64,000 nt of DNA, taken from assembly GCA_009914755.4 (NCBI GenBank), contig CP068257.2, positions 6,976,001-7,040,000 of the forward strand. The letters run 5' to 3'. Position numbers and translations under genes: made by a program. The notes below the pieces were generated by a model. That model searched no databases and was not told where the DNA came from. It worked only from the letters and a program-made list of their open reading frames with translations. Positions 1 to 61,082 of this stretch are shown here, one piece after another (position 1 is the first letter of the stretch; each line of letters starts with the position of its first letter). The stretch is from the human T2T-CHM13v2.0 reference genome, Homo sapiens.

Positions 1-1243
1 ATAGAAAGTTGCTTCTAAATAGACTATCCTCCACTTGTCATTATTGTTCTCATTTCCCCATCCCACAGTCCTTGTATAATTTACTAGCTTGGACAGTTTA
101 CCTGAGAAATTGGCCTCAAAGCAGAAAGAAACTTAATGCTAATATTAAACTATTTTTGGGTTAAATTATTTTTCTTGGGTTCAAATTCAGTCCCTGCCAG
201 GTAGTGTTTTTTTAGTTTCTGTAGTATTTGATAGCAAGTTGATTCTATTTACAACTTAATAATGATTACATTAGGAACTATTTTGCTTTTAATTCAGTTT
301 GTAGATTAAGGAGGCATTATATAGATTTTTTAGTAATTTTTAGTAACTTTTTTTTAAGTGAAGAAATTCAAGATTCTAGGTTATTACTGGTGGAGGCATT
401 AGTGTGTTTCATATCATAGCTCATTGTTTATTGATGAATTCATACACACATGCAAAAAAAGATAATAGATGCTCAGCAGAAAAAAAGTTCAGTAAGTGCT
501 GAACAGGGTGCTTAACGTAGCAGTGGACAGAAAGGGGCATGATCTTTAATTACTGTGTAAAAAGTGCTGCAACTGGATTGTAGGAGAAGAGCCCATACAT
601 TACAGGGGCAGGTAACCTTTTCTGAATGGTTTGTGTAAATTCTTGATCAAAGCTAAGATCTGAAGGATAATTTAAACTTTGATAATTATAGCTATATTTT
701 AGTTTTAAGGCCTAAGGAATATACTAGATAATTTGTCAGAATATCTAAGTATAATGATAATTTTTCTTCAGAACTATAAAATTACACAAAGTCTGTCTTT
801 TCAAAGTGAGATAAAATTTTGGCATCAAAGCTAACTTTTAAATTATGATGAATAATACATAATTACCAGAAAATTCTTATTTCTGAAATAAAATTATTCA
901 ACATTATTTTTATCTTAGAGTATGACTTTCTGTCTCATATTTTTTAGAACTGTCTACTGCCAACATAATATTAAACTATTGACTAAAAGAATTTAAGATG
1001 TATGTTAGCCAAATCTCAGAGAAAAACCAATGGAAATATTGAGAGAAGTAATTTAGGTATCTCTTGCCCCACTGCCTACCACTAAATAAAATTACAAACA
1101 ATAAAACGTCCTAGGTGGTGATGCAATGAGAGGCACTAATGGTGTGGTAAGAGAGATGATGGTTCACTGGGAGCACTAAGGAAAGGTCTCCTGATGAGAA
1201 AATACGTAAGGCCATACCTGAAGGGTTAGAAAACGCCAGACAT

Positions 1244-1540
1244 GGCTGGCCGTGGTGGATCACATCTGTAATCCCAGCACTTTGGGATGCCAAGCCTGGT
1301 GGATCACAAGGTCAGGTGTTTGAGACCAGCCTGACCAACATGTTATTGCTCCTAAAATACAAAAATTAGCTGGGCCTGGTGGTGCATGCCTGTAATCCCA
1401 GCTACTCAGGAGGCTTGAGGCAGGAGAATTGCTTGAACCTGGGAGGTAGAGGTTGCAGTGAGCCAAGATCACACCACCACACTCTAGCCTGGGTGACAGA
1501 GTGAGACTCCATCTCAAAAAATAAAGAAAGAAAGAAAATG
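1244..1540 (+). mobile_element. Alu SINE (full length, A-rich tail)
   Basis: ggctggccgtggtgg...gtaatcccagcactttggga...ctccagcctgggtgacagagtgagactccatctcaaaaaataaag; ORFs 1260-1742 and 1111-1293 are Alu-derived. Confidence 0.9.
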
Positions 1541-4500
1541 CCAGACTTTTATTGAAGGGCCAGAATGGTATAGTGAAGTGTTCTGAGTCAGCTGGGCTCT
1601 GATTGATACAGAGCTTGGCATGTTTGAAGGACAGCAAGGAAGCCAGAATAGCTGGAGCATAGCAGCAGGGAGACAAGTGCCACAAGATGAGTTGGAGAAA
1701 GGCACTGGGAAAGGTTTGTATTTTAAGTGCTCTGAGAAGCAATTGAAGGTTTGAAATAGAATAGTGACTTGCTTGATCACATTTGTACTTTTGAAAAGTT
1801 CCTCTGGCTGCTGTGGGGAAAGGTTTGAGTAGATGCAGGGTGGGAGAAGCATAACCAGCAGTAGACTCTTGTAGCAGGTTAGTTGAGAGATGGTGGTGGC
1901 CACGAGTGTGCTACTAATGGTGGAAGTGACAAGAAGTAGAAGGATTGGAGACAAAACTTGAAGATAAAAAGTCTTGAATTTGCTGATGATTTGCATTGAT
2001 GAAGTGTTGGGGGAGAGGACTGAAGGAGCAGAGGAGAGTGACAAGGGACTGGATGCCATTTATAAGGATGGGGAAGACTGGGATGAAAGCGGTTAAGGGA
2101 GAAATTTTAAACATGGCAAACTTAAGAGGGGTTTTGTGTGAGAAAATGGAAATGCTAAGAAGGAAGTTGAAAATCCTTCTAATTTGGAGATCTTTGATTA
2201 AAACCAGAAATAAGAATGTGGGAAGCATCAACTTCCAAGATGCCCTCATTGTAGATAATATCATTTAGGATCTAGGCTCAAGCCCTGGGAAACTCCAGGG
2301 CTTTGGAAGTCAAATAGAGGAAGAACACGTACAGGAGGTGAAGAAAGATTAGCGAAGAAGTCAGTGAAATATCCACAGGTGGACTGCTGCCAAATCCAGC
2401 AGAACAGTATGCCAGATGTCAGGAGCATGAGTAAAATGAGAAAAGAGAAATGGCTTTTGACAACACCTCCCTACTAATAGTAGGGAAGAAGACATAGGTA
2501 CAGATTCAAGTTGATTGGAAATTATGAAAGTGAGGTAATTGACCTGCAGTGGTTGCTGCTCAGTGAAATCAGCATAGTGATTACCTGAGCTAGGTTAGAG
2601 ATTTGATGGGTAAGAAAGAACACCTGAGGGTAATCCTGGAGGGAGAAAAATAAAGTGTTTGCTGGAGAGAATGAGTTGGATTGCTGGACTTCAATGTGTG
2701 CGGGTTGAGTTTGTGACTTAAAAATGAAACCAGTCTATTGCTTGTGTGGCTTTTCTCAAAATACTGTTATTCCATTACCTATCTCTTACCCCAAGAGTAG
2801 TCACATTCTTATTTCTGGTTATTTTAATTCCTGGTGTTATTTTTATGTGATTAATGAGATAGTACTTGTTAATTTGATGATATTCTAGAAACCTGGTAAG
2901 TACTATGTACCTTAAGTTTTGGTTACTTGATTGGTAAAATTATGCATGCACCATTGAATTACCTAATTCAAAATATATTCTTTTATTGTTTGACATTTGT
3001 CTTGTTTTTCTTTAAAATGTTATCTTTGTGGAGTAAACATTTTTCTTTATGCTGTTTAGCATCTTCAGATTAGTTCAGGGTATTGCTGAATGTGGTTGTT
3101 CAGAAGTAAAATGCTTTAGTTTTAGTTATATAGATTTTAATAAGATAGTACTTTCTACATAATTTATCAGGCACTTTAGGCATTTTAATTTGCAAATTTA
3201 GGACAATTTGCTTTAACGTTTCTTCACTTTTGTCCATTGGATGTAATTTCCATAAAGTATTCATTTCCCTAAGTAAAAACCGAAACCAAACCGACAACTA
3301 ATGGTCACTGAAGAAAGAGTGATTAAATGCTAAGATTATAATGGTATTTGCATTTTAATGTTACCAGCTATATACAGTTAAAAGTGTATGCATTTATCGA
3401 TTGCTTATGTTTCTCATTGCATTCTTTGGCCTACTGGTTTTTGTTGTTTATAGCTATAGAATATAGAATTCCTTATGGTTATCCATTTCTCCTTTTAAGT
3501 AGAGTGATAGTTGTTAGAAGAAAAATAACCCCCCAATACTTTCTTCTAGTGTTAATTCTTAAAGTGTGATTGACGTTTATTTACTTTTTGGTGCAGTAAT
3601 TGCAGTTCATGAGTCAATGTTGATGTCATATAAACCTTAATTTTTAATGTTTCATTGTAGTGATGTCTCTGTAGCAGCAAACATTTAAGTTATTTGTTAT
3701 AGTTAAATGTTTAAATCACTGTTAGTGATTAGCTTATTTTGCCTTCCTTGAAGCAATTTGTCCTAAATTTCCATACGTTTGCATTTGTTTTTGCTGTCCT
3801 AAAATTCCTTAGTTGCTGGCTTTGACCTTTTATGTTGCTGAGTTTTACACATCTATTTTCTCAACTGCCATATCTTAGGAGGCTTGGAGTACCCATAATA
3901 CAGTGAGCCCACCCTCCTGGTCCCCAGACATTTCAGGAGGTCAGGAAATTTTTAAACCCAGGCAGCTTCCTGGCAGTGCAATTTGGAGCATCAAAGTGGT
4001 ACATAAAATTACATTTACATTCATATATCATTTCTGTCTGATTTGTTTTGCCCTACTGGATGTTAAGAATTAAATCTTTCTTTTCTAGATTGAGTTTCCA
4101 GAAACACTTTTTAAATCTAAAAATTTTAATGTAAAGAAATAATATGCTTGCATTTAAAAATCAAGTATACATTTTTAATACCTCTTTTATGGTTAATTCC
4201 TTTTGTTGTGATTACTACTGGTTTTATGAGGGAGAAGTCCTTGACATGTAGACCAAAAGGTAATTAAGGATCTTTTCATTCATGATATCATAAAACTTTG
4301 TTGCTTAGAAAAAAGCAAAAGAAAAAACTCCATTAATTTATTATGTTCTCATGGAGAAGAAATACCAAAATTGTGGCAGATTTCATTGTCTGTTTAATAC
4401 CTTAAAATCACAAGGCTTTTTCCCCCATGACATTGGTTGATGGCTCTGCCAGTCCTTGAAGTGAGTTAAGTAGTGTGATACATTTTGAAGAGAAAAAAAT

Positions 4501-4903
4501 TACTTTGAAAAAGTATTAACTCAAAAGTTAAAAAACTTCATTGACTGGAGATGACAGTTTTTCTTCATATTCTATATTTAATATTCTGGAATATGGCTGT
4601 TTAATTTAGACTAATGAAGGATTTTAAGGAATTCTAGATTATACTATATTTTCTTTCATGACTGGAAGAACTATTTTTTTAACCTCCCTACCTCCCCCTG
4701 ATATCATCTAAGATATTGAAGTATAAATATGCCTCATTTGACAGTTTGATAATATAGACCACCAGTTTTTACTTAATTTTTTTCTGGGTCAGAATTTCAT
4801 GTTGGAGAAAATAAATTGAGAGACTACTGTAGTCTTGATTTTTAATCACTGACTTAATTTTTCAAAAATCTTTTATACCAATTTAATAACACAAAACAAA
4901 CTC

Positions 4904-5215
4904 GGCTGGGCGCAGTGGCTCATTCCTGTAATCCCAGCACTTTGGGAGGCTGAGGGGGCAGATCACTTGAGGTCAGGAGTTCGAGGCCAACCTGGCCAAC
5001 ATGGTGAAACCCTGTCTCTACTAAAAATACAAAGAAATTTAGCCGCGCGTGGTGTCATGTGCCTGTAATCACAGCTGCTAGGGAAGCTGAGCAGGAGAAT
5101 TGTTTGAACCCAGGAGACGGAGGTTGCAGTGAACCAAGATCGCACCATCGCACTCCAGCCTGGGCAAAGAAGTGAGACTCCGTCTCAAAAACAAACAAAA
5201 AACCCAAAAAACTAA
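4904..5215 (+). mobile_element. Alu SINE
   Basis: ggctgggcgcagtggctcattcctgtaatcccagcactttgggaggc ... gtctcaaaaacaaacaaaaaac. Confidence 0.9.
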
Positions 5216-5835
5216 CCTGACCCCATCCATCCGTTGTGCAAAGAACCTGATGCACTTCTCTAAAGGGATCTCAAGGAGAGCAGGGTAAGAGAAGACAGGA
5301 GTGGCAGTTTGAAACTGGGAGCTGGCTGTATTTATTACATCCAAAGGGAGAAAAGCCATTCCTCCCGTTCCTTTTGTTCATGTGTATCTATTTTATGTTT
5401 ACAGTATCACCATAAATTTTTCACTTGGAAACCATTCTGCTAAATAGGGAATAAGTTCATTTCAAACTATGATAAGGGACATCAGTTGAAGATATGACAT
5501 ATTATTTAACTTATCATGAGGGAAACATCTAAGTATTTTCCTGAGCATCTGGATAATTTTAAATATACATAATTCTTCTACTTAGGTAGGTGCCAGGTTT
5601 CTTCAAGGAGTAATTAATTAGTACAAACAAGGGTGAGGGGGCAGGGAACACCATACTCTGGTACTTAATGTCTGAAATTATCAGGGAATTTAACACATTT
5701 TCCCATAGATTTATTTCTTGTGTAAGAAGTCAGATAAATTATTTCCATTTCAAGTATTTATTATTCAGATTATTTAAAGCAAAGCTTTCACAAAGCCTTT
5801 TGTCAGCTTTCCTGTAATCCTCAAATAATTTTTCC

Positions 5836-6010
5836 TGGCTGGATGCTTTGGCTTACTCCCATAATCCTGGCACTTTGGGAGGCAGAAGCAGGAGGATCAC
5901 TTGAGCCCAAGAGTTCTAGGCTGCAGTGAGCTGTGATCACACCACTGCAGTCCAACCTGAGTGACAGATCAAGTTCTTGTCTCAAAAATAAAAGTAATAA
6001 CAATAATAAT
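5836..6010 (+). mobile_element. Alu with internal deletion
   Basis: Alu 5' arm joined to 3' end (…gcactttgggaggcagaagcaggaggatcacttgagcccaagagttctaggctgcagtgagctgtgatcacaccactgcagtccaacctgagtgacag…aaaataaaagtaataacaataataataaa). Confidence 0.7.
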
Positions 6011-7785
6011 AAATTTTCCTCTAAATACAATGGTGAATGAGGTAGAAATGTTGAGTTCATAAGAGAACTGTTGAATAGTGAAGGAAACTGACTTAATTTT
6101 AATGACAGGAAGAATACTGTCACACACTAGCAAAAATGAACTTTCATGCTGATGTAGCAGTACAGAATATGCTTCCAACCCAGGGACGCTGGAGCCAGGC
6201 TTGCTAGCTAAGTGACCTTGGACAAGTTACTTAACTATTTTATTCCTCAGCACACTCATCTCAAATGAGGATAATAAAACCTACTATATGGGATGGATGA
6301 GAGTAAAAAATACTTAGATTAGTACATAGTAAGTACTCAATAGATGTTAGCTATTACTGTAATCAATGCAAGACCAGTTAATGAGAGAGTTTTTCCTTAT
6401 CCTTACTCTATATTGAATACGATTTGTTGCACTTCGAAATATCTGGATCAGGCTACAGTTGTTGTCGTCACCGAGAATGTAGGAGTGGGAAAGAGAAAAA
6501 TCATGCAAAGGCTTGCTGATAGCGTTCACATTGACAGGCCTAAAGTATGATTCTAAGGTTGTAAGCATTTTATATTTAGATTTTTAAGTTGTGGAGTATA
6601 CTTTTAAAGATAAAAATAATAAGCCAGGTCTTTTACTACTTATCTAAAGAAGTGTTTGTATAACATTTAATAAAATGTTTTATCTCAGTGGCATTTGGAT
6701 TTAAAAATTATTTTGGGCTGTTACAGAATGTTGACTTTTCCTAATCTGTTACATAGGGCCATGGGTCTGGATTTCCAAGAAAGCGGAGACCTTGAGGTGC
6801 AGGACTGTCGGGGCGAGGTGGCCGAGGCAGGTCAAAGCTGAAAAGTGGAATCGGAGCTGTTGTATTGCCTGGGGTGAGGCTTGCTTCATGTATATTTTCT
6901 CTAATCTAAATGTCAGTTAATGATGAAAGTCTCATAGCAAGTTAATTTGATCTTATGAGTCATATAAATAGGTCAAAATGTTTATTTTACTGTCCTACTT
7001 TTCTTTTTTTTTGAGCCTCTGGTTACATTTTCTTGTATATTTACTTTCTCATCCTTTCTCTTTTCTTACCTTCCTCTTTGACTCCTTATCTTTCTATGCC
7101 AACCCTCTCTAAAAAGTCATTATGTAATATAGTAGCTCTTTTATTTAAAAAATTTTAAGATTGATAGATATTTGCTTACTATCATGTTATGAAGCTTTAT
7201 TTGTATGTGTATTACAAATACATTTGCTAACTACTAGCAAATATTTTATGTAATAACTTCGCTATTTTATTAAAATCCTGTTTTTAAAATTCTGAAATGT
7301 CATTTTAAGTATAGGAGACAGGTGAAATTGTTCAAGTTTACTACTAAACGAGGAATAAGGAAGCTTAGATTCTCGTCCTTTTTTCAAAAAGAAAAATTTT
7401 AAAACCAGGCTTATTGAGGTATAGTTGACATAAGCTATATTTGACTTGACATGTACAATTCCATCAGCTTTGATATATATATATACACCCTTGAAAACGA
7501 TACCACAATCATGACAGTGAATATATTCATCTCCCAACGTTTCTTCATGTCCCTCTGTAATTTTCTGCATTCCCCCTGCCATCCGTCCTTGTCCCCAAGA
7601 TTAGTTTGCATTTTCTAGAGTTGTATATAAGTGGAATCATACAGAACTGTATGCTTTTTGGACTGATTTATTTCAGCACAATTATTTGGAGATTCATCTA
7701 TGCTGTTGTATTTGTTAACGGTGTACTCCCTTTTCTTGCTGTGTATTAATTAAACTGTGGATGCACAACAGTTGTAGACCTGTGC

Positions 7786-8091
<306 letters not shown>

Positions 8092-8282
8092 TAATGTCTT
8101 CATCTGGTTTTGGTATCAGCATAACTCCAGCTTCATAGAATGAATCAGAAAGTATATTCTCCTCTTCAGTTTTCTGAAAAAGTTGTGTAGTAGTGGAAAT
8201 GTATCTTCTTATATTATACATGAATTTATTAGTGAAACCATCTTGGCCTGAAATTTTCTTTGTGGGGGGTTTTTGTTGTGTT

Positions 8283-8840
<558 letters not shown>

Positions 8841-10513
8841 GGACAGTTTTTAACAAAAAATTTTATTTCTTTAATAGGTACCTATTTAGGTTATCTGTCT
8901 CTCCTTTCATAAATTTGCATCTTTCAAGAAATTTGTTCATTTCATCTATCTTGACAAATTAAAGGAATGGAGTTGACCATAATGTTTCTTATTATTTTAG
9001 TACCTGTAGAATCTGTAGTGATTTCACCTTCCTCATTCTTGATACTAATAATTTGTATCTTGTCTTATTTTTTTCCTGATCAGTCTGGCTAGAGATTTAT
9101 CAATCTTATTGATCTTCTTGAGTCAGCCTTTGTTTTCATGGACTTTTCTCTATTTTCTTTCCCCTTTCTGTTTTATTGATTTATATTCTCATCTTTATTT
9201 CTTCCTATCTTCTCACTTTGAGTTTAATTTGATCTTCTTTTTTTGTTTACTCTTACGTGTCCCTGCTTGGAAGGGACACTTGTGAAGTTTAGGTCAGAGC
9301 TTTCTATTCTCCTTGGCTTATATCTGTCGTCTAGGAAAATGATATTTCTATCACCTTCTGGATAAATCACACTATTATCTATGCAGGCAACAATAGCACA
9401 TATTTTCTCAAAGACTACCTTTGCCCTCAAGTTAGGTTTTATTTTTCTAGCAGTCTAAAGGTCATGAAATCAATTATAAAATAAAAACAGTGGGTCTTCA
9501 AGCTAGATGATACTGTTTTCTTTCTTGCATGGACAATTATTTTAAAATGTTTTGGTTTTTCTGCACTTATTATTTAAATATGACTCCCCACCCCCACTTG
9601 AATCTAGGGACATTGTAGTTTTCTACTGCAGACTTTATTTCCAGTTTATACTGGGAATATATTGTTTATATCATTTTCAGTGAAAGCATTCACTGGTTAA
9701 ATTTCCTTTTAAAAATAATAATGGATCTTTACAATTTCTTTGAGCTGCTCAGTGTGTATAATGTGTTGAATTTTCTGTAAGTGGTTGGGAGGTAGAAATA
9801 GATACTTTATCTCTATTTTAGCCATTTCCAAAATTATATAACTCAATAGTCTTGTCAATGCATCATTAGTCCTATGACTGAATTAATGATTACTTTTAGT
9901 AGTCACTTAATTTCTTACTGATGATGATGATTCTACTTCTGTGAATCATCTTGGATGATTCTCTAAAATCTTAGAAAGCTGATTTTGTTAATGCTATGCA
10001 TATAACACATTAATACATTTTCTCTATTAAAAGAATTAAAGCGTTATAGGTAGATCAGAATTTACCATTACTAACTCCTCAGTCCTCCTTATTTCCCTGT
10101 TACCAGTTTGGTATATTTATATATTAGGTTGATCCATATGAAATTGCCAATATTATTTCTGAACTGATGAAAAGCAGCAATTTCTTATGAGTCAACCTAT
10201 TATATGTGCCCATAGACTACATATAATGAATTTGCATGTTTTTATATTATAGTGCTATACCTCAAATACTGTTCTGCAATTTATTTTTTCACTCAACAGT
10301 GTCTTTTGATAATTTCTTTCATGGCAATCTATACAAGTTTCTACCTCCCTACTTTTAAAATGTTTCGTACTTTCCTAATGTTTGGATTTGTCATTGCTTT
10401 ACTTACTCCCTAATGATTAATATTGGCATTATTAACACTTGTAGTCATTAGGGTTCATATGACTATAAATTGCTCTTATAAAGCATTAGTACTATCCATT
10501 GAAACTGCTTTTA

Positions 10514-10876
<363 letters not shown>

Positions 10877-10902
10877 CTATTTAGTTAACCAACCAAACTT
10901 CC

Positions 10903-11242
<340 letters not shown>

Positions 11243-11627
11243 TAATTCAGTTGTGTTATGTTTTGACCTTGAACATAACCTGTTGTGTTTCAACTGTCTT
11301 TCCAGGCTTCGATTGTAAGCTTTTTAAAGAAAGAGGATTGTATTTTATGATTTTGGCAGTGCCCTCCTTGTCTTCTTCTACAACTTCTAGTTCAGAGCTT
11401 TATTTTGTTTCATAATCACTCTAGAAATTATTAACAAACCAGTGGGTACTTAGTTGATTTAGTCAAATAGAACTAAGTCCAGACTGAACAATATTGGTTG
11501 ATAATCATTTGGCTAATACTGAAATTTTGATGTTATTCAAAATAATATTCTAAAGCGGTGCTAATAGAAATATAATGAGAACCACATATGCACCTTAAAA
11601 CTTCCTAGTAGCCACATTAATAAGTTA

Positions 11628-11900
<273 letters not shown>

Positions 11901-12379
11901 TTAATTTTAATGCCTTCCATTTCGATATATTTAAAATATTACCATTTCAACATGTAATATGTAATTATGTGCTGTATTTTATGTTTGCAGGACATCTCAG
12001 TTCAGACTAACTACATTGCAGATCCCAAGTGTGTGTCATTAAAATAGTGATAGATTTGTGTGTGTACATACATATAATATTATCATTTATAGTTTCTTGA
12101 TTAGAATTCTGCATAATCAAGTCTTACTAAGACAGGTTTATTATATTTTCTCATTACTTATTGGTCTATAGGAATTCTACCTCTAAAGAGAGAATTAGGT
12201 GAATAATAAAATGTCATGACTCCATTTTATAGTACTATCTTAGCATTAATATTTGGAATTGTTATTCTAGACCTTAGCAAAAATATATGTTTTGATTATG
12301 AATTTTCTGAAGCTTTCCAGTTAAGTGTAAAACAAGTGAAAAATATAACTTCGTATTTTGTGTATTTTGCTTTTTATAG

Positions 12380-12481
12380 GTGTCTACTGCAGATATTTCA
12401 TCAAATAAGGATGATGAAGAAAACTCTATGCACACTACGGTTGTGTTGTTTTCTAGTAGTGACAAATTCACTTTGAATCAG
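12380..12481 (+). CDS. KMT2C: Internal coding exon, KMT2C (MLL3)-type: VSTADISSNKDDEENSMHTTVVLFSSSDKFTLNQ (phase 0, 34 codons)
   Basis: Acceptor tttttatag|G at 12378-12379, donor cag|gtttga at 12482-12483. The open frame joins the next exon in phase. The peptide ...SSDKFTLNQ immediately precedes DMCVVCGSFG in KMT2C as I recall it. Could be authentic KMT2C or a pericentromeric KMT2C-derived paralog. Confidence 0.65.
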
Positions 12482-12673
12482 GTTTGAACTTGAAAATTTA
12501 CTGTCTTCCTCATTGAATTCCTCCTTGCACATTTCTGCTTTATCTCATATACACAGAAGTGATCCAATATTTAGCTATAGAGCTATATTAGTTAAGAAGG
12601 TATTTTTAAAGTAAAATTTGTAGGTTTTTAGCTTAGTCTCCATTTAAAATATGTTCTGTTTTCTTAACTTCAG

Positions 12674-12778
12674 GATATGTGTGTAGTTTGTGGCAGTTTT
12701 GGCCAAGGAGCAGAAGGAAGATTACTTGCCTGTTCTCAGTGTGGTCAGTGTTACCATCCATACTGTGTCGGTATTAAG
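12674..12778 (+). CDS. KMT2C: Internal coding exon encoding a PHD zinc finger: DMCVVCGSFGQGAEGRLLACSQCGQCYHPYCVGIK (phase 0, 35 codons), KMT2C-type
   Basis: Acceptor ttaacttcag|GAT, donor AAG|gtaaac. Cys4-His-Cys3 spacing is typical of a PHD finger. Matches the remembered KMT2C segment CVVCGSFGQGAEGRLLACSQCGQCYHPYCVSIK with one difference (G instead of S). Confidence 0.75.
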
Positions 12779-15256
12779 GTAAACATCCTTAAATTGAGTT
12801 AACAAATACGTATTGAATTTTTATTTGGTTTTAGTAGTAACATGAGCTCCTAGTTCTCACAATTAAGTATTATGATTATTAAACATATGTGACAGTATTT
12901 AAGCACTTTAAATACTGCTTTTAAGGGTTTCCTATCTCAAGAAATTTGCTCCTCTATAAATCTTATATTGTACTAATATCCTGCTTTTGTCTTGAAAAAG
13001 TAAAACATAAAAATATATGCATTTAATTTAAAAGACAATTTATACTATTCACAAAGATTTTAGGTTTAGGTGATTCATTTTGTCTGTTTATTTAAAAAGC
13101 TGAGAACTGGAGTATTTAGTAAAAAATTATTGGCCCATTCTGTTCTTTCCCGCATTCTCTCTCCTCTGTGCTCACTCATATACAAAATGACATTTTCTCC
13201 TTATAGCCAAAAGAAACAAAACAAGTGTCATATTTAATGCAATTGGTAATAATCGAGAGTCAGCACTGCTCACTTTCAAGCATTTCAGTATAGAGGCTTT
13301 CTGGGGAACGTTTTAAGTGGTATCGTGTGCTTGGTTTTAAATATGGACAGGTCTCAATACTTCACTAGTTGTATCTAAGGTTCTTGGTTTTTTCTTTTTA
13401 AGAACTCAGTCTTAATAAAACTTACATATTTGAATAAAGTGTCATGGCCACTGAAAGCAAGCATGGAGGTATAGCTGTACAGCAGAGGTCTTAAACTGTA
13501 TACTCCATGGACCTGACTGTGGCCTGGGGGTTGGGGACCCCTGCTATAGAGGTTTCAGATTTAAATTCAGAAGTTAGAATGAAAAAGAATTATATTCTTT
13601 ATCTAAATGATTTCACAGTTAACTGAGAGAAAGTCAGTATAAGTTGAAAAGTTTATCAGTGTTAATAAGAATGAAAAATATGTACAATATGCAATTACTA
13701 TTAAATATAATTTGCCCATAGTTGCACACTGATTTCATTATCATGACAGTTAAGTATCAGAGCTTCTGGTTTCTCACTCTTCATTCATGTATTCAGCAAC
13801 CATGTGCTAAGGTACTAGGACAAGCACTGGATTAACAAGATAAAGATGATAAGGTCCACCCCTCAACAACTGTATGCTATAATCCAAAAAACAGGCAATT
13901 CCCATACAGAGTCATACATACAATGACAGGCATAAGACACCACTTACTGGAAGACATAGAAGGGATACTAGCCCAGGTTTGTGTCAATATTGTAGGCTTT
14001 TTGGTAGAGGCAATTCATAGGTTGATAGCTGAAGGGGAAGGAAAACACATGTAGGATAGAGGGAAGAAGTAAATGCAAAGAGCTGGAGGTGAGGATGATC
14101 ACTGTGGAGCTCCGTGTAGTCTAGTTTGGCTGGATGCTAGAACAAAGGTGCAGAGTATGGTAAGTGGCGAAAGATAAGGCTGAATAACCTGACAAGAACC
14201 ACACTGATGTGAGAGTTTTGATTCCATGCTAAGGAATTTTCAACTTTTCCCAGGTGCAAAAGGAAACCAATGACAAAGTCAATGACTAGAGATTTAAAAT
14301 GTCACTGGTCAAGTGACTGCTTGTGACCTGTAATTGCTTAACTAATTATTATCACATGAGTGTGGGGTCTGTTAGCCTTAAATCACTACCTTAACCTTGA
14401 GAAGTTGATGATGCCTTTGTTTTCTGAGAACAGTTTCCGTGTGCAGGCTGACAGTTCTATAGGGGTGGCAGAAGAAAAGTGTAGGGCCAGAAAAAAAGAT
14501 ACACAGACTTCTTGTGATTTTTTTAAAGCTATGGAACATGATGAAGTAACAAAGCATAAGTATACCCTTCACTATGAATGATTATGTTTTCACATCTTTC
14601 ACTAGATGTGTGTAAGAAAAAATATTTAACGTAGCATGTATTAACCAAGCTATTGAGAGGAATACCGTTCACTACTTACAGTTTATTTCAGAAATCAATG
14701 ATTTGAATTTAATTCATAAATTTTGGCAACATACCTTCATCTAGCTCTTGAACACCTGGCAGCATCTGAAATAAATCAAATATTACTTATAAAGTTTCAG
14801 TCAAACAAGAGACATTATCATGTAAACCCACTGCAAGTCAAGGAGCATCTGTACTGTAGATTGATCATCCCTAATCTATAAATCTGAAATCCAAAATGCT
14901 CTACAACCTGAAACTTTTTGAGCTCGGACATGACACCACAACTGCAACATTCCACACCTGACCTCATGTGACAGGCTCTGGGGAAAACAGTAAAAACTTT
15001 GTTACCTGCAAAAAATTACTGTAAAATATTGTAGAGAATTACCTTCAGGCTATGTGCATAAGGTATATATGAAACATAAATGAATTTCATGTTTAGACTC
15101 AGGTACCATCCCCAAGATATTTCATTAGGTATATACAAATATCCAAAATCTGAAAAAAATCTACTTTTGGTCCCAAGCATTTTGGACAAGGGACATTTAA
15201 CCCGTCCTACTGGAAAAATAAAATTCCTTTTCAGTATGACAGAAATTAAGAGATCA

Positions 15257-15379
<123 letters not shown>

Positions 15380-17238
15380 TTACTCTCACATATAATTGTT
15401 TTTAAATCATGTAAATTCTAAACAAACTTCTGAAGGTATAATTACACAAATTCTTAGCAATCGCAAAAGTAGATGACTGGGCTACTGTGTCATTTTTCTA
15501 CCTGTGTTTTGTTGATAATATGCAAAATTTAGGAATAATGTAGAAAAATGATGTATGTCAATATAGCTTACAGATGAAACTTTTTTGGCTTCACAAAGAC
15601 ATACTTATCATAACTGATACAATTTTCATACTACAGTGCTCTTTTGCTTTATAAATACTCAAGTTATTTTGTGTGCTGCTTCAAATTTTACTTTTGTGCA
15701 TCGCCTTCCATCTCCTTAGTACATCTTATAGTAGCTGTAAGTTGATCCTGTATTTCTTGAAACTAAAACAAAGAATTAAAAAAAATTACATTTGGAAATG
15801 ACCTAAATGTCCATCAGTAGATGAATGAATCAACAAAATATATATAAAATATTTTAGACTATCACAATCTTTTTTATTTAAAAAAGGTCAGAATCTAGGA
15901 TAAATCATCCCATTACCTGTTTTTTGTAATTAATTTTAGTGGGACACTGCCACACCCCTTCAATCTGCATATTGTTCGTGGCTACTTTTGTGCTATAACT
16001 GCAGGGCTGAGTTATTGCAACAGTGATATTATGGCTCACAAAGCCTTAAATAATACTATCTGGCCCTTTACAGAAAAGTTCACAGACCCCTGCTCTAAGA
16101 CTAAAACACAACATTCTTCTTGCTCTTGAATTACATTTTATCAGTTAAATACTCAAACTTGCAAACTGGTAAAATGTGGAAAGATAAAGGATTACCTCAT
16201 GCTAAGCATTTATATTTTGAATTCCAAACACTACCACATCAACTATAATTTTATTTTTTGTATGTATGCATTTAGTTTTATTATAGCAAAGCAACTTGCA
16301 CATTTTTAAATATTTAAAACTAAGCGTCATCTTTCCTTTCTAGGGAAACAACAAGAAAATTTAAAAACAAGCAGGAACAAAATTAAAATCGACAAAGTCA
16401 GTTCCAAATAAGATCCTACAGGATCTTATTGACTCTCCCATTGAATAGCAGGACTCAAGTCATCATTAGGAGAGAAGTAATTTAAAAGCGTCATCTTATA
16501 CTGCAAAGATGTCCATTAAACATGCCAAAGGAGAAACCTTGTTGTCTAAATGCCCACTTAACCAACCCGAACATCTCAAACTCATCCTTTGCTGACCTTA
16601 TATAACCCCCTTTTTAGTTTAGCTTTTTCTATAAATAAGAGAAAATAGATACATGTTGGCAAATGCTAACTGTCCATATTCATATAGAGACAAAATGTGC
16701 TCTCTGAGCCCAATAGAAAGAGAGTAAGGATTTTCATCAAAATAAAAATTTATTCAGTAAAATGGCCTTTCTGAACAAGTTAACCTGAAATCTATGAAAT
16801 AAGTACACACAAGTTCTTTATACATTCAGAAAAGTAGAGACTAAAAATAAGATAATTTTCTGAAACATTCCATTAGACATTGTCCTCTGAATTAATCTGG
16901 CTTGCCTCACCATGCCAACAGAGAAATCATTAAAAATAGACTGTTTAACAGGTAAAAAAAAAAAAAACTCTGTCAACTTCTGTGAGAAATGATGCATAAT
17001 TCTCAACTTTCCTAAGGTTAAATATTTAAGAAAAAAATATGTATAAAAAATGGCAGAATAAAAGAGATTAAGATATAGGTGCATTATAATAAAATTTTAA
17101 TAAAATTAATAATAAGGAAAATACAAAAGAAAGCCATCCACTATAAAATTTTAATAAAATTAATTATAATAAAAATACAAAAGAAAGCCATCCACTAAAA
17201 TTAGTACCCCAAAACACTTTATATTAGTTAACTAGCTA

Positions 17239-17406
<168 letters not shown>

Positions 17407-18813
17407 TCATTGAAGCTGTCTCACAGCTACCTGATGTTATTTTTGTTACTGATTTTACAAATCACATTATTAAACCATTAATAATATTTAACTCTAAAGC
17501 ATACACTTTGAAAAATATCACCACACAGATCGATTCACCTTCTTTTCCTCATGTGTACACATTCCTGTGTATTACTGAATCCAGTTAAGGATACAGAAGG
17601 TGTTATCTTCCTTCCAAACTGGTATTGTTATTCACACAACATATTCAGCCCACTAGTCATTCCTCCCCTGATGAATCTGCAATGCTTAAAAACCTGAAGT
17701 CTCAAAAAGAAATGAGTATGTGGTTGAGACCGATGGTAGTAAATTATACATTGTGGAATGATTTTTCTCTTTCTTTTTGTTAGAAACTCAAATCAACCTC
17801 AGAGTTCCTCACATTAAATCATCTGCTTAAATGCTTCCAATAGATGTCTATCTCAGAAGAAAAGTAAAATTACAGTGGCCTTAGATGCTCTAAGTAACCT
17901 GTCCTCCACCGCTCACCCTGACTCAGCTGCTATATCTCTCCTCCCTACTCACTCCATTCCTACTCTGAGTCCTGCCACTCCTCGTTAGTCTGAAATCCTC
18001 CTTAGTCTGAAAATGGGGATGCAGTGTCAAACTAATAAATCACAGATAGCTATGCCTCTTTTTGTCCTGGACAAAGTTATATCCAAATGATAGTAATTGA
18101 GCCTTGAAATAAAAATTAGGAGCAAATTTTTTATTTAAAAATGAAAGTAAATTATAAATGCCAGTGGGAAGATTAAATCAAATATGATTTGGCTAAAATT
18201 TACTACTTCATTTTCCCCATATTATAAGTAAAATTAGATGCCTTTGAAAATAGAATGATCATATCTATACATAACTTGAGATTGAAATAGTTTCAGATTT
18301 AAGTCAAACTGACATGAAGAAGAACAAAATTTTACCAACTAAGACATATTTAAAGCTACTGAAGGAAAGTAATTATGAAATAGGTAATACACTTCAGCTC
18401 ATCTAGGAAATCTGAAATTAACTGTCAAAGTACCCCAATTTATTGAATCAACTTCAAAATACCATTTTAGGTATGAGCATTTCCATATATCTGATTTATC
18501 ATGGTCTTAAAATGTTGCAACATAAATACATTAAAATTATTATTTCAGTAGTATGACTATATTATTACTATTAGTCTATATTAACATTTTATAACTTAAA
18601 ATTTTATAAGTGACACATTGACTTTAATCAGAGGAAAACATCTCTCAGATCTAACTTTGACTTGTTGGAAACAAGGAATGTTTCTAAGCAGATATATTTA
18701 TCATATGTATCCTTTTTTATATTCAACTAGATCCAACATTCAGCTGTAACCAAATATTACTTTAAATTGTGCTTCAGGAAGTTTGAAAAATACTTATTTT
18801 TCGTGATACTTAC

Positions 18814-19729
<916 letters not shown>

Positions 19730-21176: not shown

Positions 21177-21383
<207 letters not shown>

Positions 21384-23669: not shown

Positions 23670-23882
<213 letters not shown>

Positions 23883-24324
23883 CTATTCATCTTTTACACA
23901 AACAAAATGTATTTTTAATTTTCAATAGGTGAACACAATCTGTAACTGGGAAAAAGCAAAGTAGAAATAAAATACATGAGTAGATTTCTGGATATAAAGG
24001 ACCGTGCATTTTTAACATTCAGACACTGAACAAGTATGAACATATTGAGTGCCTACAAGGTGGAAGATATTATAATAAGCTCTGAAGATAAGACAACACT
24101 TCTGCTATTATTTTAGCTTAAAGTATAACGAAGAACCAAGATAAAAAGATGACAGTTATAAACTCAGATGGGTCCTGTAAAAAAAACACAAACCATAGTT
24201 ATATGATTGCATAAGATAATTTGATCTATACTTCACCCAGGGAAGATTTCCGTGAGGAAGAGATGCTACACTGAGAAATGAAGGATGAGAAAGAAGCAGT
24301 TAAGCAAAGAGGAAAGAAAAGCAC

Positions 24325-26114: not shown

Positions 26115-26150
26115 GCCAGGCACGGTGGTTCACGCCTGTGAACCATTTTA
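26115..26150 (+). mobile_element. Truncated Alu 5' fragment (about 35 bp) at the left boundary of repeat array A
   Basis: ggccaggcacggtggttcacgcctgtgaacc joined abruptly to array-unit sequence. Confidence 0.6.
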
Positions 26151-27036
26151 AGAGTCAGTTGATGAACTCAACATTATAGTTGTTTTTGTCTCGTTAGGAG
26201 GATCATGCTATCCTCTAAATCATATTCATTAAATAGCTATTTTAGCCATGAGATAGCACTTGGATGAATGAAGCCAATGTATTGATATTCAAGTTTATCT
26301 AATTTTTATAACAGAAATCAACAAAAGATATGTCTTATGCCTAATAGTAACGAAGAGAAGTAATTAGTCAATGTGGTTTATCCCAATTCTAGCTTTCTTT
26401 GCTTCATCCAGTAGTTCCTGGAGCTGCCAAAATCAAATCCTTTTTGTGTAAACATGCTAAATGCATCTGAAGTGAGTTGACTCAGGTTTCCTCAGCAGAA
26501 AACCCAAAATTACATAAATAACTTCTTCTTTTCCCTCCTTCCTGCCTCACAATCCCTCTTGCTAGAGTAAAATAATTGCTACATCAGTGGTCTCATTGGT
26601 TCTCGTTCCACAATTTTACTTGTTATTACAATAACTTTTCCGTCTGTTTTTAGCAATACTATGTGACGTCTGTAAAATCTATACTTCAACTCATTCTCCT
26701 TCAACCCTTGGTGAAAACATGCTGTAGAATTAAAGCAAAATTATGCTGTCCCCTGATCCCCTTATGTCTTGATCTGCTCTCCAATGTTTCTTCTTCCCAA
26801 TTTCAATGTGGGGAAGTGTATAATATTACTGCGAAGATCATGTTCCAGATCAGCAGCATCAGCATCACCCGAGAATTTATTACAAATGAAGAATCTCAGG
26901 TCTGCTGAATCAGAAAGTGCAGCTTCGACGAGCCCCGCCCCGCTGATTTATTCGGGGAAGAGAAGTTCTTTTCTAAATGATTGAAAATGACATTAAATGT
27001 GTTTTGCAAAATTACCTGTCCCACATGGTAGTGCAT

Positions 27037-28718
<1,682 letters not shown>

Positions 28719-28786
28719 TTATCAATAAATAAAGAATGTTTCAAAGACCATACAGTTACTAATAAAAAATATAAAGGAGAGTTTAC

Positions 28787-28815
28787 CTTCTCAGCTGGTT
28801 GTTTCTGAGAAGACA
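28787..28815 (-). CDS. 29-nt repeated micro-exon: (x)SSQKQPAEK, unit A1
   Basis: Minus strand cttttcag|TGTCTTCTCAGAAACAACCAGCTGAGAAG|gtaaac. The same exon with conserved splice sites is found in 5 other units; frame a is open in all copies. Confidence 0.5.
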
Positions 28816-30486
28816 CTGAAAAGCAAAAGGGATACATAATCACTCATATGTACACATGATAAATTTATCCATACATCATGCATTGTTATTATCAAGCTGT
28901 ATCTTCCTGCCTGCACTAGTGTAGGCTTTGATGTTTCCTACTTTTTGTCTGGAGACTGGAACACGACAGAAATACACTGAAAAAAAAGGAATACAGGCTT
29001 CACAAAATATACCCTTACAATTTCAAACATGGTATGATTCGTGATATGTCTAAAACTAAAATAAAACCGTGTCAATATCAATGTGGACATGCTGAGTGAT
29101 GAGGACAAATCAGAGGAGTAACTCACACACCTGAGAATCAATGTCAAAGCAGGTGGTACATGACCCAGTATGTCTTCCTTGCAAGAAATTAGAAGGATTT
29201 ACACCATTATACTACAAACGTTCATCGTGCCCTTTAACTTGACCAATAAGTAGAACATACACAATTACAATGACAATTCAGTTAAATGTACATTTCATGT
29301 CTCTTCAGTGGAAGTGTCCTAAGTTGATCACCTTGGACATATGTTTCCTGAAACCTAGTAGATAATATTCATTATTTCTCACACCCATGTGGTGTAATAA
29401 TTTGCCTAAGTTTCTTGTATCCACTAGCTTAGCCTTCTGAAAGTTTCTTCATCCACTCATGGCACCAAAGGATAATATATTAGCCTCAATAAAAATATCA
29501 TCAATTACCGATGTTAACATACTTCTACAAAGTAAAACTGCTACAAGCATTAGATATTGATAAGTTTTACACTCAGAAATCACCCCAGTATTCATTGAAA
29601 ATGACCACTTTAGGAGTTAATTAGAATTCAACATCATTTTTGTTTCTAAAATAGCCTTGTTGGGATTATCATGTTATTCTCTAAAGAAGTTTTGTGAAAT
29701 AGCTATTTTATCCAAGAGGTAGCTCCTTGAACAAGGAAGCCAATGTATTCATATGCAAGTTTATCTCATTTTTATAATTAAAATCAACAAAACATGTATC
29801 TCTGATGCCTAATAGTAACAAAGAGGAGTAATGAGTCACTGTGGTTTATCCCGATTCTAGCATTGTTTCCTGCTTCCAGTATTTCTTGGAGCAGCCAAAA
29901 TCAAATCTTCTTTAATGCAAATATTCCAAATGCATCTGAAATGAGTTCACTCAGGTTTCCTCAGCAGAAACCCCAAAATTACATAAATACTGTCTTCTTT
30001 TTCCTCCTTCCTGTCTCACAATCCCTCTTCCTTGAGGAAAATAATTGCTCCATCAGTGGTCTTCTTAGTTCTCATTCTACAGTGTTTGTGGAGTTATTCA
30101 GATCACTTGTCCCTCTGTTTATAACAATACGATATGATGCCTATAATATCTATTACTTCATCTCGTTCTCTTTCCCCTCTTGATGGAAACATGCTGTAGA
30201 ATTAAAGCAAAATTATGCTGCTCCCTTAGCCTGGTATGTGTTGAACTGCTCTCCAATGGTTCTTCTTCCCAATTTCAATGTAGGGAAGTCTATAATCTTA
30301 CTACTCAGATCATGGCCAAGGACCAGCAGCATCAGGGTCACCTGAGAACTCACTACAAATGAACAATCTCAGGCATACTGAATCAGAACGTGCAGCTTAG
30401 ATGAACTCTCCACTGATTTATTTGGAGAAGGGACGTTCTCTTCTATCTTGATTGAACGTGACATTAGATGTGTTTTGCAAAATTAC

Positions 30487-30559
30487 CTGTCCCAGATATT
30501 GGTCCCCCCTTTATTTCTGTGGCTGTATTTGAAACAGAATATTTCTCATTACTTGTAGC
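30487..30559 (-). CDS. 73-nt repeated exon: ATSNEKYSVSNTATEIKGGPISGT (phase 0 start), unit A2; resembles ANKRD30A ATSGKFEQSAEETPREITSPAKE
   Basis: Minus strand cccattcag|GCTACAAGT...GGGACAG|gtaatt; open in frame 1 in all paralogous copies; phase-compatible with the 29-nt exon 91 nt upstream. Confidence 0.55.
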
Positions 30560-30650
30560 CTGAATGGGATTTGAAAACAAAATAATACGTAAAGTAGGTT
30601 TCATAGACTATACAGTTAATAGTTCAACAGATAAATGAGACTTTAATTAC

Positions 30651-30679
30651 CTTCTCAGCTGGTTGTTTCTGAGAAGACA
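30651..30679 (-). CDS. 29-nt repeated micro-exon: (x)SSQKQPAEK, unit A2
   Basis: cttttgcttttcag|TGTCTTCTCAGAAACAACCAGCTGAGAAG|gtaatt on the minus strand. Confidence 0.5.
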
Positions 30680-51545: not shown

Positions 51546-51556
51546 AATAATCAACA

Positions 51557-57810
<6,254 letters not shown>

Positions 57811-59129: not shown

Positions 59130-59202
59130 CTGTCCCAGATTTTTGTTCATCTTTTATTTCTGTGGCTATGTTCAAAACAGAATCTTTCTTGTCACTTGTA
59201 TC
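59130..59202 (-). CDS. 73-nt repeated exon, unit B1: [24 protein letters not shown]
   Basis: cattcag|GATACAAGTGACAAGAAAG...TCTGGGACAG|gtaatt on the minus strand. Confidence 0.5.
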
Positions 59203-59296
59203 CTGAATGGGATTTCAAACAAAATAATCAATACATACAGTATATTTCATAGACTATACAGTTAATAATTCAAAATATGAATGAGGAGTGTAATAC

Positions 59297-60989: not shown

Positions 60990-61082
<93 letters not shown>

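What the first reader, a model, noticed from the sequence alone, without database searches (positions are those of the whole stretch)
12380..12778. Two spliced KMT2C (MLL3) PHD-finger exons on the plus strand, opposite-strand to an ANKRD30-like gene: the signature of a pericentromeric KMT2C-derived duplicon
The two exons at 12380-12481 and 12674-12778 join in phase. Together they translate to ...VSTADISSNKDDEENSMHTTVVLFSSSDKFTLNQ|DMCVVCGSFGQGAEGRLLACSQCGQCYHPYCVGIK, a canonical Cys4-His-Cys3 PHD finger that matches the first PHD cluster of KMT2C as I recall it. I see one difference, VGIK versus VSIK, and I am not certain of the reference residue. ANKRD30-family coiled-coil exons begin only 3-11 kb further along on the opposite strand, and I know of nothing like them inside authentic KMT2C introns. 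KMT2C 5' fragments are known to have been copied into juxtacentromeric regions of chromosomes 9, 13, 18 and 21, which is the origin of the BAGE genes. Those regions also hold ANKRD30B/ANKRD30BP and ANKRD20A copies.
Basis: partly seen in the sequence, partly recalled or inferred. Interest (0 to 1): 0.6.

Follow-up and report, generated by a model that had tools for sequence, protein, structure and literature searches.

The report
Dead KMT2C gene-fragment copy beside ANKRD30-like pseudogene
The two exons are real and come from the histone methyltransferase gene KMT2C, but they sit in a broken, multi-copy duplicate of part of that gene next to a broken ANKRD30-type gene. This kind of human duplication is already well known, and it matters mainly because it produces false KMT2C "mutations" in sequencing data.

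Summary
Exons 12380-12481 and 12674-12778 (+) have AG/GT borders, join in phase and translate as written. They match the KMT2C/KMT2D PHD region (PDB E 5e-26).

The locus is not the working gene:
- Two more colinear KMT2C-like exons lie upstream, at 3879-3998 and 6757-6873. The second carries an in-frame TGA (R897X).
- The exons that follow in orthologues are absent from the 51 kb downstream.
- At least four copies, 95.8-98.7% identical to one another, occur in human-derived contigs. Exons and introns have diverged equally.
- Five of this copy's seven amino-acid changes (E864G, R866Q, R886H, G892R, R897X) are printed in cancer papers as KMT2C mutations. Variant fractions are given for two, and both are low.

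On the minus strand lies the 3' part of an unprocessed ANKRD30-type pseudogene. It has exons at 23942-23725, 21366-21183 and 19729-18814, a Pfam CCDC144C match (E 8e-53), stops and frameshifts, and a repeated 73-nt exon further upstream.

- The finger is the first of the second PHD cluster (residues 958-992), not the first cluster.
- Only Cys4-His-Cys is encoded.
- There are two differences in these exons (N942T, S990G), not one.

The chromosome could not be determined. The feature is already known and of low interest.

The parts
1..13552 (+). KMT2C-derived genomic segment, with introns retained. The left end is cut by the window. The right end is not settled: 13552 is only the point where one low-coverage paralogous contig diverges.
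   Evidence: Four colinear KMT2C-like exons with the spacing of a genomic copy. L013 aligns to 11038-13552 and then diverges, but L014 runs colinear across that point.
3879..3998 (+). KMT2C-like exon encoding residues about 846-884 (AWSTHNTVSPPSWSPDISGGQEIFKPRQLPGSAIWSIKV). It carries E864G and R866Q. The acceptor is at 3878 or 3881, and the donor is GTG|gtacat.
   Evidence: E864G and R866Q are printed as KMT2C variants in PMC5363577 and PMC10397379.
6757..6873 (+). KMT2C-like exon encoding residues 885-923, 117 nt, with borders tag|GGC...GGG|gtgagg. It carries R886H, G892R and an in-frame stop, R897X (TGA at 6793-6795).
   Evidence: R897X (c.C2689T, chr7:152235897, 1.4%) and R886H (c.G2657A, 6.8%) are in PMC8222689. 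G892R is in PMC5363577.
12380..12481 (+). KMT2C-like exon encoding residues 924-957. This is the first exon of the finding. It carries N942T.
12674..12778 (+). KMT2C-like exon encoding residues 958-992. This is the second exon of the finding. It encodes the N-terminal two thirds (Cys4-His-Cys) of the first PHD finger of the second cluster. It carries S990G, which is private to this copy.
18814..19729 (-). Terminal coding exon of an ANKRD30-type (ANKRD26-family) pseudogene. The acceptor is ttatttag|ATT at 19729 and the stop TAA is at 18816-18814. The reading frame breaks between 19247 and 19182.
   Evidence: Pfam CCDC144C E 7.9e-53 and 8.8e-42, profile positions 124-277 and 301-425, in two different frames. 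Colinear with recalled ANKRD30A residues 971-1274.
21183..21366 (-). ANKRD30-type exon with borders ttacag|ATT...CAG|gtaaat, open in frame and in phase with the terminal exon.
   Evidence: Pfam CCDC144C profile positions 1-63, E 2.5e-12. Recalled ANKRD30A residues 909-972.
23725..23942 (-). ANKRD30-type exon with an in-frame stop and a frameshift near the A-run at about 23840.
   Evidence: Two overlapping tblastn pieces in different frames, one containing '*'.
59130..59202 (-). One copy of a 73-nt exon (..[23 protein letters not shown]..) with borders ttcag|G...ACAG|gtaatt. It recurs once per ~1.9-kb tandem unit. The other copies are at 61010-61082, 30487-30559 and 28643-28697 plus 27016-27033; the last is split by an L1 insertion. 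It is probably the repeated middle-region exon of the ANKRD30-type gene.
   Evidence: It resembles the ANKRD30A repeat module only weakly (E about 18-39).

Best explanation
The window is one copy of a multi-copy human segmental duplication built from two gene fragments placed tail to tail.

On the plus strand lies an unprocessed genomic piece of KMT2C. Within the window it covers the four exons that encode residues about 846-992, and its introns are kept. The KMT2C match stops after the exon for residues 958-992. That exon encodes only the first two thirds of the first PHD finger of the second cluster.

On the minus strand lies the 3' part of an ANKRD30-type gene: a repeated 73-nt middle exon, two coiled-coil exons and the terminal CCDC144C exon.

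Both fragments are pseudogenes. The KMT2C reading frame has a TGA at residue 897. The ANKRD30-type frame has stops and frameshifts, and an L1 element has inserted into one of its exons.

Shown: the exon anatomy, the disabling changes, the missing downstream KMT2C exons, the existence of several diverged copies, and equal exon and intron divergence.

Inferred: it makes no KMT2C-related protein. Its practical effect is that reads from it and its sister copies are mis-aligned to KMT2C on 7q36.1 and are called as low-fraction KMT2C variants. It probably lies in a pericentromeric or acrocentric short-arm duplication block, as the BAGE and KMT2CP loci do.
For: - Exons and match to KMT2C/KMT2D.
- Four colinear plus-strand exons with canonical borders, spaced 2.8 kb, 5.5 kb and 0.19 kb apart. 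A tblastn probe of KMT2C recalled from memory (4911 aa) matched them at 83-97% identity; the sequence is. The numbering of that probe was checked against published variant tables. These name R886, R897, E864, G892 and R866 as the KMT2C reference residues, and give c.2689C>T and c.2657G>A, which are exactly the window's TGA and CAT codons.
- Not the authentic gene: there is a TGA in frame. The exons ITKVVLSKGWRCLEC.., CVWCRHCGATS.. and WMHAICQNLN.. follow within 1-4 kb in orthologue contigs L001-L003. They have no match anywhere in the window by tblastx or by a Cys-pattern scan, and nothing beyond residue 992 matches.
- Multi-copy and neutral: contigs L013-L016, from ENA-sourced metagenome assemblies and taken to be human contaminant DNA, are 95.8-97.4% identical to the window and 97.5-98.7% identical to each other. 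L014 is colinear over 11747-18394. Exon divergence is 1.0-3.9% against 2.2-2.5% outside exons. Different copies carry different amino-acid changes.
- ANKRD30-type pseudogene. Its ORF belongs to a 117-member cluster of near-identical variants. The exact 144-aa ORF occurs on a human gut metagenome contig.
- Literature: MLL3 was duplicated on chromosomes 9, 13, 18 and 21 with the BAGE family. BAGE loci include full-length and truncated genes in juxtacentromeric heterochromatin. KMT2C is a collapsed duplication in GRCh38, with extra T2T-CHM13 copies on chr2, 13, 14, 15 and 21. Five named pseudogenes, KMT2CP1-5, exist.
Against: - No human reference genome could be searched. The chromosome, the pericentromeric setting and the identity to 7q36.1 are not measured.
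- The full KMT2C and ANKRD30A probes came from memory. KMT2C numbering was cross-checked at five residues only, and ANKRD30A was not cross-checked.
- The boundary between KMT2C-derived and ANKRD30-derived DNA is not located. The divergence points seen at 13552, 14996 and 16722 come from low-coverage metagenome contigs that may be chimeric.
- No RNA data were available, so transcription and splicing are untested.
- The cancer papers present the matching variants as somatic mutations. That they are mapping artefacts of this duplication is my inference.
- The species is inferred to be human from contaminant contigs and from human variant tables. A great-ape origin is not strictly excluded.
Confidence: 0.9

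Rival explanations
1. The window is the authentic KMT2C locus at 7q36.1, and the ANKRD-like matches are chance or intronic debris.
For: The exons are 94-97% identical at protein level to KMT2C and keep canonical splice sites and genomic spacing.
Against: There is an in-frame TGA at residue 897. No exon beyond residue 992 occurs in 51 kb of downstream sequence, whereas orthologues have the next three within 4 kb. A three-exon CCDC144C gene fragment at E 8e-53 is not chance. There are seven amino-acid changes in 147 residues of a protein that is highly conserved across vertebrates over the two flagged exons.
Confidence: 0.01
2. The window holds a processed (retrotransposed) KMT2C pseudogene.
For: It has disabling mutations and several genomic copies.
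Against: The exons are separated by 0.19-5.5 kb of intron-like sequence with intact AG/GT borders. There is no poly(A) tract and no fused exons. The ANKRD30-type part also keeps its introns.
Confidence: 0.01
3. The KMT2C-derived exons are used in a live transcript. One option is 3' exons of a BAGE2-like cancer/testis RNA. Another is a chimeric RNA with the convergent ANKRD30-type gene. Either would have a regulatory or coding role.
For: Splice signals of all four exons are intact. BAGE genes, which arose from this duplication, are expressed in testis and tumours. Gorilla BAGE2 fragments are reported to keep ORFs.
Against: The KMT2C frame is closed by R897X. Exon and intron divergence are equal between copies. 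No BAGE coding exon was found in the window with a recalled probe, a weak test. There is no CpG island, and GC is 29-40% throughout. No RNA data are available.
Confidence: 0.08
4. The window comes from a non-human great ape, for example one of the amplified BAGE2-containing short-arm arrays of gorilla.
For: BAGE2 fragments are amplified on gorilla acrocentric arms. No exact match to the window was found; the best contigs are 99.2-99.5% identical.
Against: The copy's amino-acid changes coincide with variants called in human tumour and plasma DNA. The exact 144-aa ANKRD ORF occurs in a human gut metagenome. The TPTE and IGSF3-GGT partners of the gorilla array were not looked for.
Confidence: 0.07

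Closest known systems
BAGE loci (BAGE2 and relatives): KMT2C/MLL3-derived juxtacentromeric duplications on chromosomes 9, 13, 18 and 21 (Ruault et al. 2003, as cited in PMC4041455 and PMC3757347)
   Same: An unprocessed genomic copy of the 5' part of KMT2C, present in many diverged copies. Some copies are truncated and non-functional. It is a known source of off-target reads for MLL3.
   Different: No BAGE coding exon or promoter lies in this window (weak test), so only the 3' end of the KMT2C-derived block is seen. Whether this copy is attached to a BAGE 5' end is unknown.
Named KMT2C pseudogenes KMT2CP1-5 (e.g. KMT2CP4, chr2:89,625,445-89,637,907) and the unnamed T2T-CHM13 copies on chr2, 13, 14, 15 and 21
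   Same: Short KMT2C-derived fragments of 12-70 kb in duplication-rich regions. The window's fragment is at least 12.8 kb.
   Different: Which of these copies this is, if any, could not be tested.
Authentic KMT2C, exons encoding residues 846-992 (first finger of the PHD4-6 type cluster; KMT2D equivalent solved in 9yl3)
   Same: Same exon order, phases, borders and spacing, and 140 of 147 residues identical.
   Different: It has the nonsense codon R897X and six missense changes. The following exons are absent. The PHD finger lacks its last Cys pair.
ANKRD30B and its pseudogenes (ANKRD30BP2 chr21:13,038,166-13,118,251; ANKRD30BL on 2q21) and ANKRD30A/NY-BR-1
   Same: It has the CCDC144C coiled-coil C-terminus on a large last exon. 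The exon order is colinear with ANKRD30A residues 838-1274. There is a repeated short middle exon, and the ORF is multi-copy in human DNA.
   Different: It is only 39-54% identical to (recalled) ANKRD30A and about as close to (recalled) ANKRD20A1 in the last exon. The frame is broken. No ankyrin-repeat exons lie in the window. No ANKRD30B reference was available for comparison.

Membership tests
Authentic KMT2C gene | Uninterrupted reading frame through consecutive exons | tested here: not met
   TGA at 6793-6795 in the exon for residues 885-923. The reference residue is Arg897, per PMC8222689.
Authentic KMT2C gene | The exons encoding the rest of the PHD cluster follow downstream on the same strand | tested here: not met
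   These exons are present 1-4 kb downstream in orthologue contigs L001-L003. They are absent from the whole window by tblastx, tblastn and a Cys-pattern scan.
KMT2C-derived segmental duplication (BAGE / KMT2CP family) | Unprocessed genomic copy: colinear exons with introns and splice borders kept | tested here: met
   Four exons at 3879-3998, 6757-6873, 12380-12481 and 12674-12778 with AG/GT borders.
KMT2C-derived segmental duplication (BAGE / KMT2CP family) | Several diverged copies in the genome, evolving without constraint | tested here: met
   The window and L013-L016 are mutually 95.8-98.7% identical. Exon divergence is 1.0-3.9% against 2.2-2.5% for non-exon sequence. Amino-acid changes are copy-specific.
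KMT2C-derived segmental duplication (BAGE / KMT2CP family) | Location in juxtacentromeric or acrocentric short-arm duplication blocks | not testable with these tools
   No human reference genome was available. No satellite DNA lies in the window. The literature places the known copies there.
KMT2C-derived segmental duplication (BAGE / KMT2CP family) | BAGE 5' exons and promoter attached (full-length BAGE gene) | tested here: inconclusive
   A recalled BAGE1/2 peptide has no match in the window. Those exons would in any case lie far upstream of the window's left edge.
PHD finger (Pfam PF00628) | Complete Cys4-His-Cys3 zinc-binding signature | tested here: not met
   Only Cys4-His-Cys is encoded. 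The match covers profile positions 1-30 of 47. The final Cys pair is on the missing next exon.
ANKRD26-like family (ANKRD30A/B, ANKRD20A, ANKRD26, etc.) | C-terminal CCDC144C coiled-coil region | tested here: met
   PF14915 at E 7.9e-53, 8.8e-42 and 2.5e-12 over profile positions 1-63, 124-277 and 301-425.
ANKRD26-like family (ANKRD30A/B, ANKRD20A, ANKRD26, etc.) | N-terminal ankyrin repeats | tested here: not met
   There is no match to recalled ANKRD20A1 or ANKRD30A N-termini anywhere in the window. These exons may lie beyond the right edge.
ANKRD30 subfamily specifically | Closer to ANKRD30A/B than to other family members, with the repeated middle-region module | tested here: inconclusive
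   It is colinear with recalled ANKRD30A residues 838-1274 at 39-54% identity, but the last exon is about as close to recalled ANKRD20A1, at 40-41%. The repeated 73-nt exon resembles the ANKRD30A module only weakly. No ANKRD30B sequence was available.

The most novel reading that the evidence does not exclude
This particular composite copy (KMT2C fragment ending after residue 992, joined tail to tail to an ANKRD30-type pseudogene) may be one of the copies missing from GRCh38. If so, it would be the specific and so far unattributed source of a recurrent set of published 'KMT2C mutations', including the apparent truncating R897X. A more remote possibility is that its intact splice sites feed a cancer/testis chimeric RNA.
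Probability: 0.25. Interest if true: 0.25.

Novelty: already known. Interest (0 to 1): 0.1.

Why it matters
The biology is ordinary. It is one more relic copy in a well-described family of primate segmental duplications (BAGE and KMT2CP loci, ANKRD30B pseudogenes).

The practical point is worth keeping. This copy carries E864G, R866Q, R886H, G892R and the nonsense change R897X. All five appear in cancer-genomics papers as KMT2C variants. Variant fractions are printed for R897X (1.4%) and R886H (6.8%). KMT2C is a frequently reported cancer gene and a known problem gene for GRCh38 mapping. A catalogue of the paralogue-specific bases of each copy would allow such calls to be filtered.

Tried and rejected
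- Naming the proteins from the large protein collection. It returned only short, unnamed, prokaryote-style ORFs and no full-length KMT2C or ANKRD protein.
- Finding KMT2C exons upstream of the flagged pair by comparison with orthologue contigs. Those contigs hold no recognisable upstream exon within 2.3 kb, so I used a KMT2C sequence recalled from memory as a probe instead, and checked its numbering against published variants.
- Exact-ORF look-ups to place the window on a named chromosome. They gave either no record or short contaminant contigs without chromosome names.
- Locating the KMT2C/ANKRD30 junction. L013 diverges at 13552/13553, L015 at 14996 and L010 at 16722/16723. L014 and L016 run straight through 13552 and 14996, and L014, L011 and L012 run through 16722. 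All are contigs of about 2-3x coverage, so I treat the breakpoints as possible assembly chimeras. A concatenated ORF query for 13.5-16 kb found nothing.
- Literature search for S990G and N942T as KMT2C variants. No KMT2C hit was found in main texts.
- Rfam scan for mir-3156 or other markers of ANKRD30B loci: no hit. Satellite search: none.
- Ruault 2003 and Grunau 2006 are not held.
- Considered and rejected: authentic KMT2C, a processed pseudogene, and L1 origin of the '[11 protein letters not shown]' motif. That motif belongs to the tandem unit, and the L1 element is inserted into it.

Full report
**1. The observation**

The plus strand at 12380-12481 and 12674-12778 holds two open segments of 102 and 105 nt. 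Each is preceded by a pyrimidine tract and AG and is followed by GT.

The joined peptide matches a solved KMT2D multi-PHD construct at E 5.1e-26 (9yl3_K) and Pfam PHD at E 2.4e-7. Short ORFs covering the same two exons in other vertebrates are 83-97% identical. The mammal-like ones (P0034, P0036 and the 97%-identical group) read MHNTVV and VSIK, while a few more distant ones also read VGIK. This copy differs from the conserved sequence at two residues in these exons, not one.

**2. Which part of KMT2C**

No full-length KMT2C was available from the tools, so I wrote the human protein from memory (4911 aa) and used it only as a probe. It found four colinear plus-strand matches:

| Residues | Window coordinates | Identity |
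|---|---|---|
| 846-884 | 3882-3998 | 95% |
| 881-927 | 6745-6885 (contains a stop) | 83% |
| 924-957 | 12380-12481 | 97% |
| 958-992 | 12674-12778 | one change in 35 residues (S990G; the blast piece extended into the intron) |

Reading the DNA gives exon borders of 3879 (or 3882)-3998 and 6757-6873, with canonical splice signals.

I checked the recalled numbering independently against published tables:
- PMC8222689 lists KMT2C c.C2689T p.R897X at chr7:152235897 and c.G2657A p.R886H at chr7:152235929.
- PMC5363577 lists KMT2C E864G and G892R.
- PMC10397379 lists R866Q.

These are exactly the five changes the window carries in the two upstream exons, including the TGA and CAT codons.

The flagged exons therefore encode residues 924-992. 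They resemble residues 344-418, which I recall as the first PHD cluster, only at 35-42%. In the KMT2D structure the matched finger is the first of several consecutive Cys-rich stretches. This is the first finger of the second cluster, not the first cluster. The 35 residues hold only Cys4-His-Cys (Pfam profile positions 1-30 of 47). In orthologues the closing Cys pair is on the next exon (..ITKVVLSKGWRCLEC..).

**3. Not the working gene**

- The exon for residues 885-923 has an in-frame TGA (R897X).
- In orthologue contigs L001-L003, the next three exons follow within 1-4 kb: ITKVVLSKGWRCLEC.., CVWCRHCGATS.. and WMHAICQNLN...
- In the window, nothing in 51 kb of downstream sequence matches those exons by tblastx, by a Cys-pattern scan or by the recalled probe beyond residue 992.
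- Seven of 147 residues differ from KMT2C.

**4. A multi-copy, neutrally evolving duplication**

An exact-ORF look-up and one exact-28-mer scan of metagenome assemblies recovered contigs that are evidently human contaminant DNA.
- L014 (6.7 kb) is colinear with window 11747-18394 at 97.1%.
- L015 and L016 are 97.4% identical to the window.
- L013 is 95.8% identical.
- These contigs are 97.5-98.7% identical to each other where they overlap.

The arrangement therefore exists in at least four distinct copies. Between copies, the two exons differ by 1.0-3.9% and the surrounding DNA by 2.2-2.5%. Each copy has its own amino-acid changes. L014 reads SVLDMVV where the window reads SMHTTVV, L013 has M959I, and G990 is private to the window. 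That is the pattern of unconstrained pseudogenes.

**5. The opposite strand**

Two minus-strand ORFs at 19684-19247 and 19182-18814 match Pfam CCDC144C at E 7.9e-53 and 8.8e-42. They cover consecutive parts of the profile but lie in different frames, so the reading frame is broken.

An ANKRD30A sequence recalled from memory (a lead only) gave three colinear pieces on the minus strand. With borders read from the DNA, they are:
- exon 23942-23725, which has a stop and a frameshift;
- exon 21366-21183, which is open and matches CCDC144C profile positions 1-63 at E 2.5e-12;
- the terminal exon 19729-18814, which ends ..[13 protein letters not shown].

Identity to ANKRD30A is 39-54%, and the last exon is about as close to a recalled ANKRD20A1. 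The family (ANKRD26-like, CCDC144C-bearing) is certain, but the ANKRD30 label is only likely. No ankyrin-repeat exon lies in the window.

Further upstream on the minus strand, a tandem array with a period of about 1.9 kb (26.1-33.4 kb and 57.8-64 kb) carries one 73-nt exon per unit with conserved ttcag|G and ACAG|gtaatt borders. It encodes ..[23 protein letters not shown]... This weakly resembles the repeated middle module of ANKRD30A. One copy is split by a 1.6-kb L1 insertion with a poly(A) tail and a short target-site duplication.

The ANKRD ORF belongs to a cluster of 117 near-identical variants. The window's exact 144-aa version sits on a human gut metagenome contig that is 99.2% identical in DNA.

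**6. What lies between**

The KMT2C-type and ANKRD30-type parts face each other tail to tail. Single contigs diverge from the window at 13552/13553 (L013), 14996 (L015) and 16722/16723 (L010). Other contigs run straight through these points, and all have low coverage, so the points may be assembly chimeras. The true junction is not located.

On the minus strand, an AATAAA at about 16750 lies 2 kb beyond the ANKRD stop codon and may mark the end of that gene. There is no Alu between 11878 and 20760, no satellite, no Rfam family and no CpG island; GC is 29-40% throughout.

**7. Comparison with what is known**

- MLL3/KMT2C is recorded as duplicated on chromosomes 9, 13, 18 and 21 through the juxtacentromeric reshuffling that produced the BAGE genes, and BAGE-aligned reads dilute MLL3 variant calls (PMC4041455).
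- BAGE loci comprise full-length and truncated, non-functional copies in juxtacentromeric heterochromatin (PMC3757347; PMC3084872).
- KMT2C is treated as a collapsed duplication in GRCh38. Decoys were taken from further T2T-CHM13 copies on chr2, 13, 14, 15 and 21 (PMC9942314).
- Five pseudogenes, KMT2CP1-5, are named. KMT2CP4, BAGE2 and ANKRD30BP2 have coordinates on chr2 and chr21.

The window fits this family in every feature that could be tested. Its chromosome, and hence which named copy it is, could not be determined.

**8. Verdict**

Corrections:
- The finger belongs to the second PHD cluster.
- The finger is incomplete.
- There are two substitutions in the flagged exons and seven across the four exons, including a stop.
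- Two further KMT2C-like exons lie upstream.
- The ANKRD exons begin 6 kb away.
- Splicing and pericentromeric location are unproven.

The feature is an already known kind of relic. Its only notable aspect is practical: its copy-specific bases coincide with published KMT2C 'mutations'.

Noticed in passing
window 26141-33441 and 57812-64000 (minus strand): A tandem array with a period of about 1.9 kb and about 80% identity between units. Each unit carries a 73-nt exon with conserved AG/GT borders, at 30487-30559, 59130-59202 and 61010-61082. It is probably the repeated middle-region exon of the ANKRD30-type gene. 73 nt is not a multiple of three, so other exons per unit should exist; I did not look for them.
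   Followed up: partly
window 27046-28642: A 1.6-kb 3' fragment of an L1 element on the minus strand (ORF2-like ORFs at 28670-28026 and 27821-27348) is inserted inside one copy of the 73-nt exon. It has a poly(A) run and a short duplicated target (AAGGATG) at 27034-27045 and 28643-28650.
   Followed up: partly
window 46121-57808: A tandem duplication with a period of about 5.4-6 kb: 46121-50064 matches 51536-55470 at 88%, and 50059-51793 matches 56078-57808 at 89%. Its content was not identified. The similar plus-strand ORFs at 49054-49311 and 54452-54691 have no Pfam match.
   Followed up: no
window 6793-6795 and 6760-6762, 6778-6780, 3933-3941: This copy's changes R897X, R886H, G892R, E864G and R866Q are all printed as KMT2C variants in cancer sequencing papers (PMC8222689, PMC5363577, PMC10397379). 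Fractions are given for two of them (1.4% and 6.8%). They are probably paralogue-derived mapping artefacts rather than somatic mutations.
   Followed up: partly
window 13552/13553, 14996, 16722/16723: Single low-coverage contaminant contigs (L013, L015, L010) stop matching the window abruptly at these points, while other contigs (L014, L016, L011, L012) continue through them. They are either copy-specific rearrangements or chimeric assemblies. The 16722 point lies about 25 nt past an AATAAA on the minus strand.
   Followed up: partly
L014, the part aligned to window 12428-12438: One paralogous copy has five substitutions within 11 bases of the exon for residues 924-957 (SMHTTVV becomes SVLDMVV). 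This is a mutation cluster, or possibly a small gene-conversion or assembly artefact.
   Followed up: no
window 17089-17197: A 54-bp unit is repeated twice at 94% identity in the AT-rich stretch between the two gene fragments.
   Followed up: no
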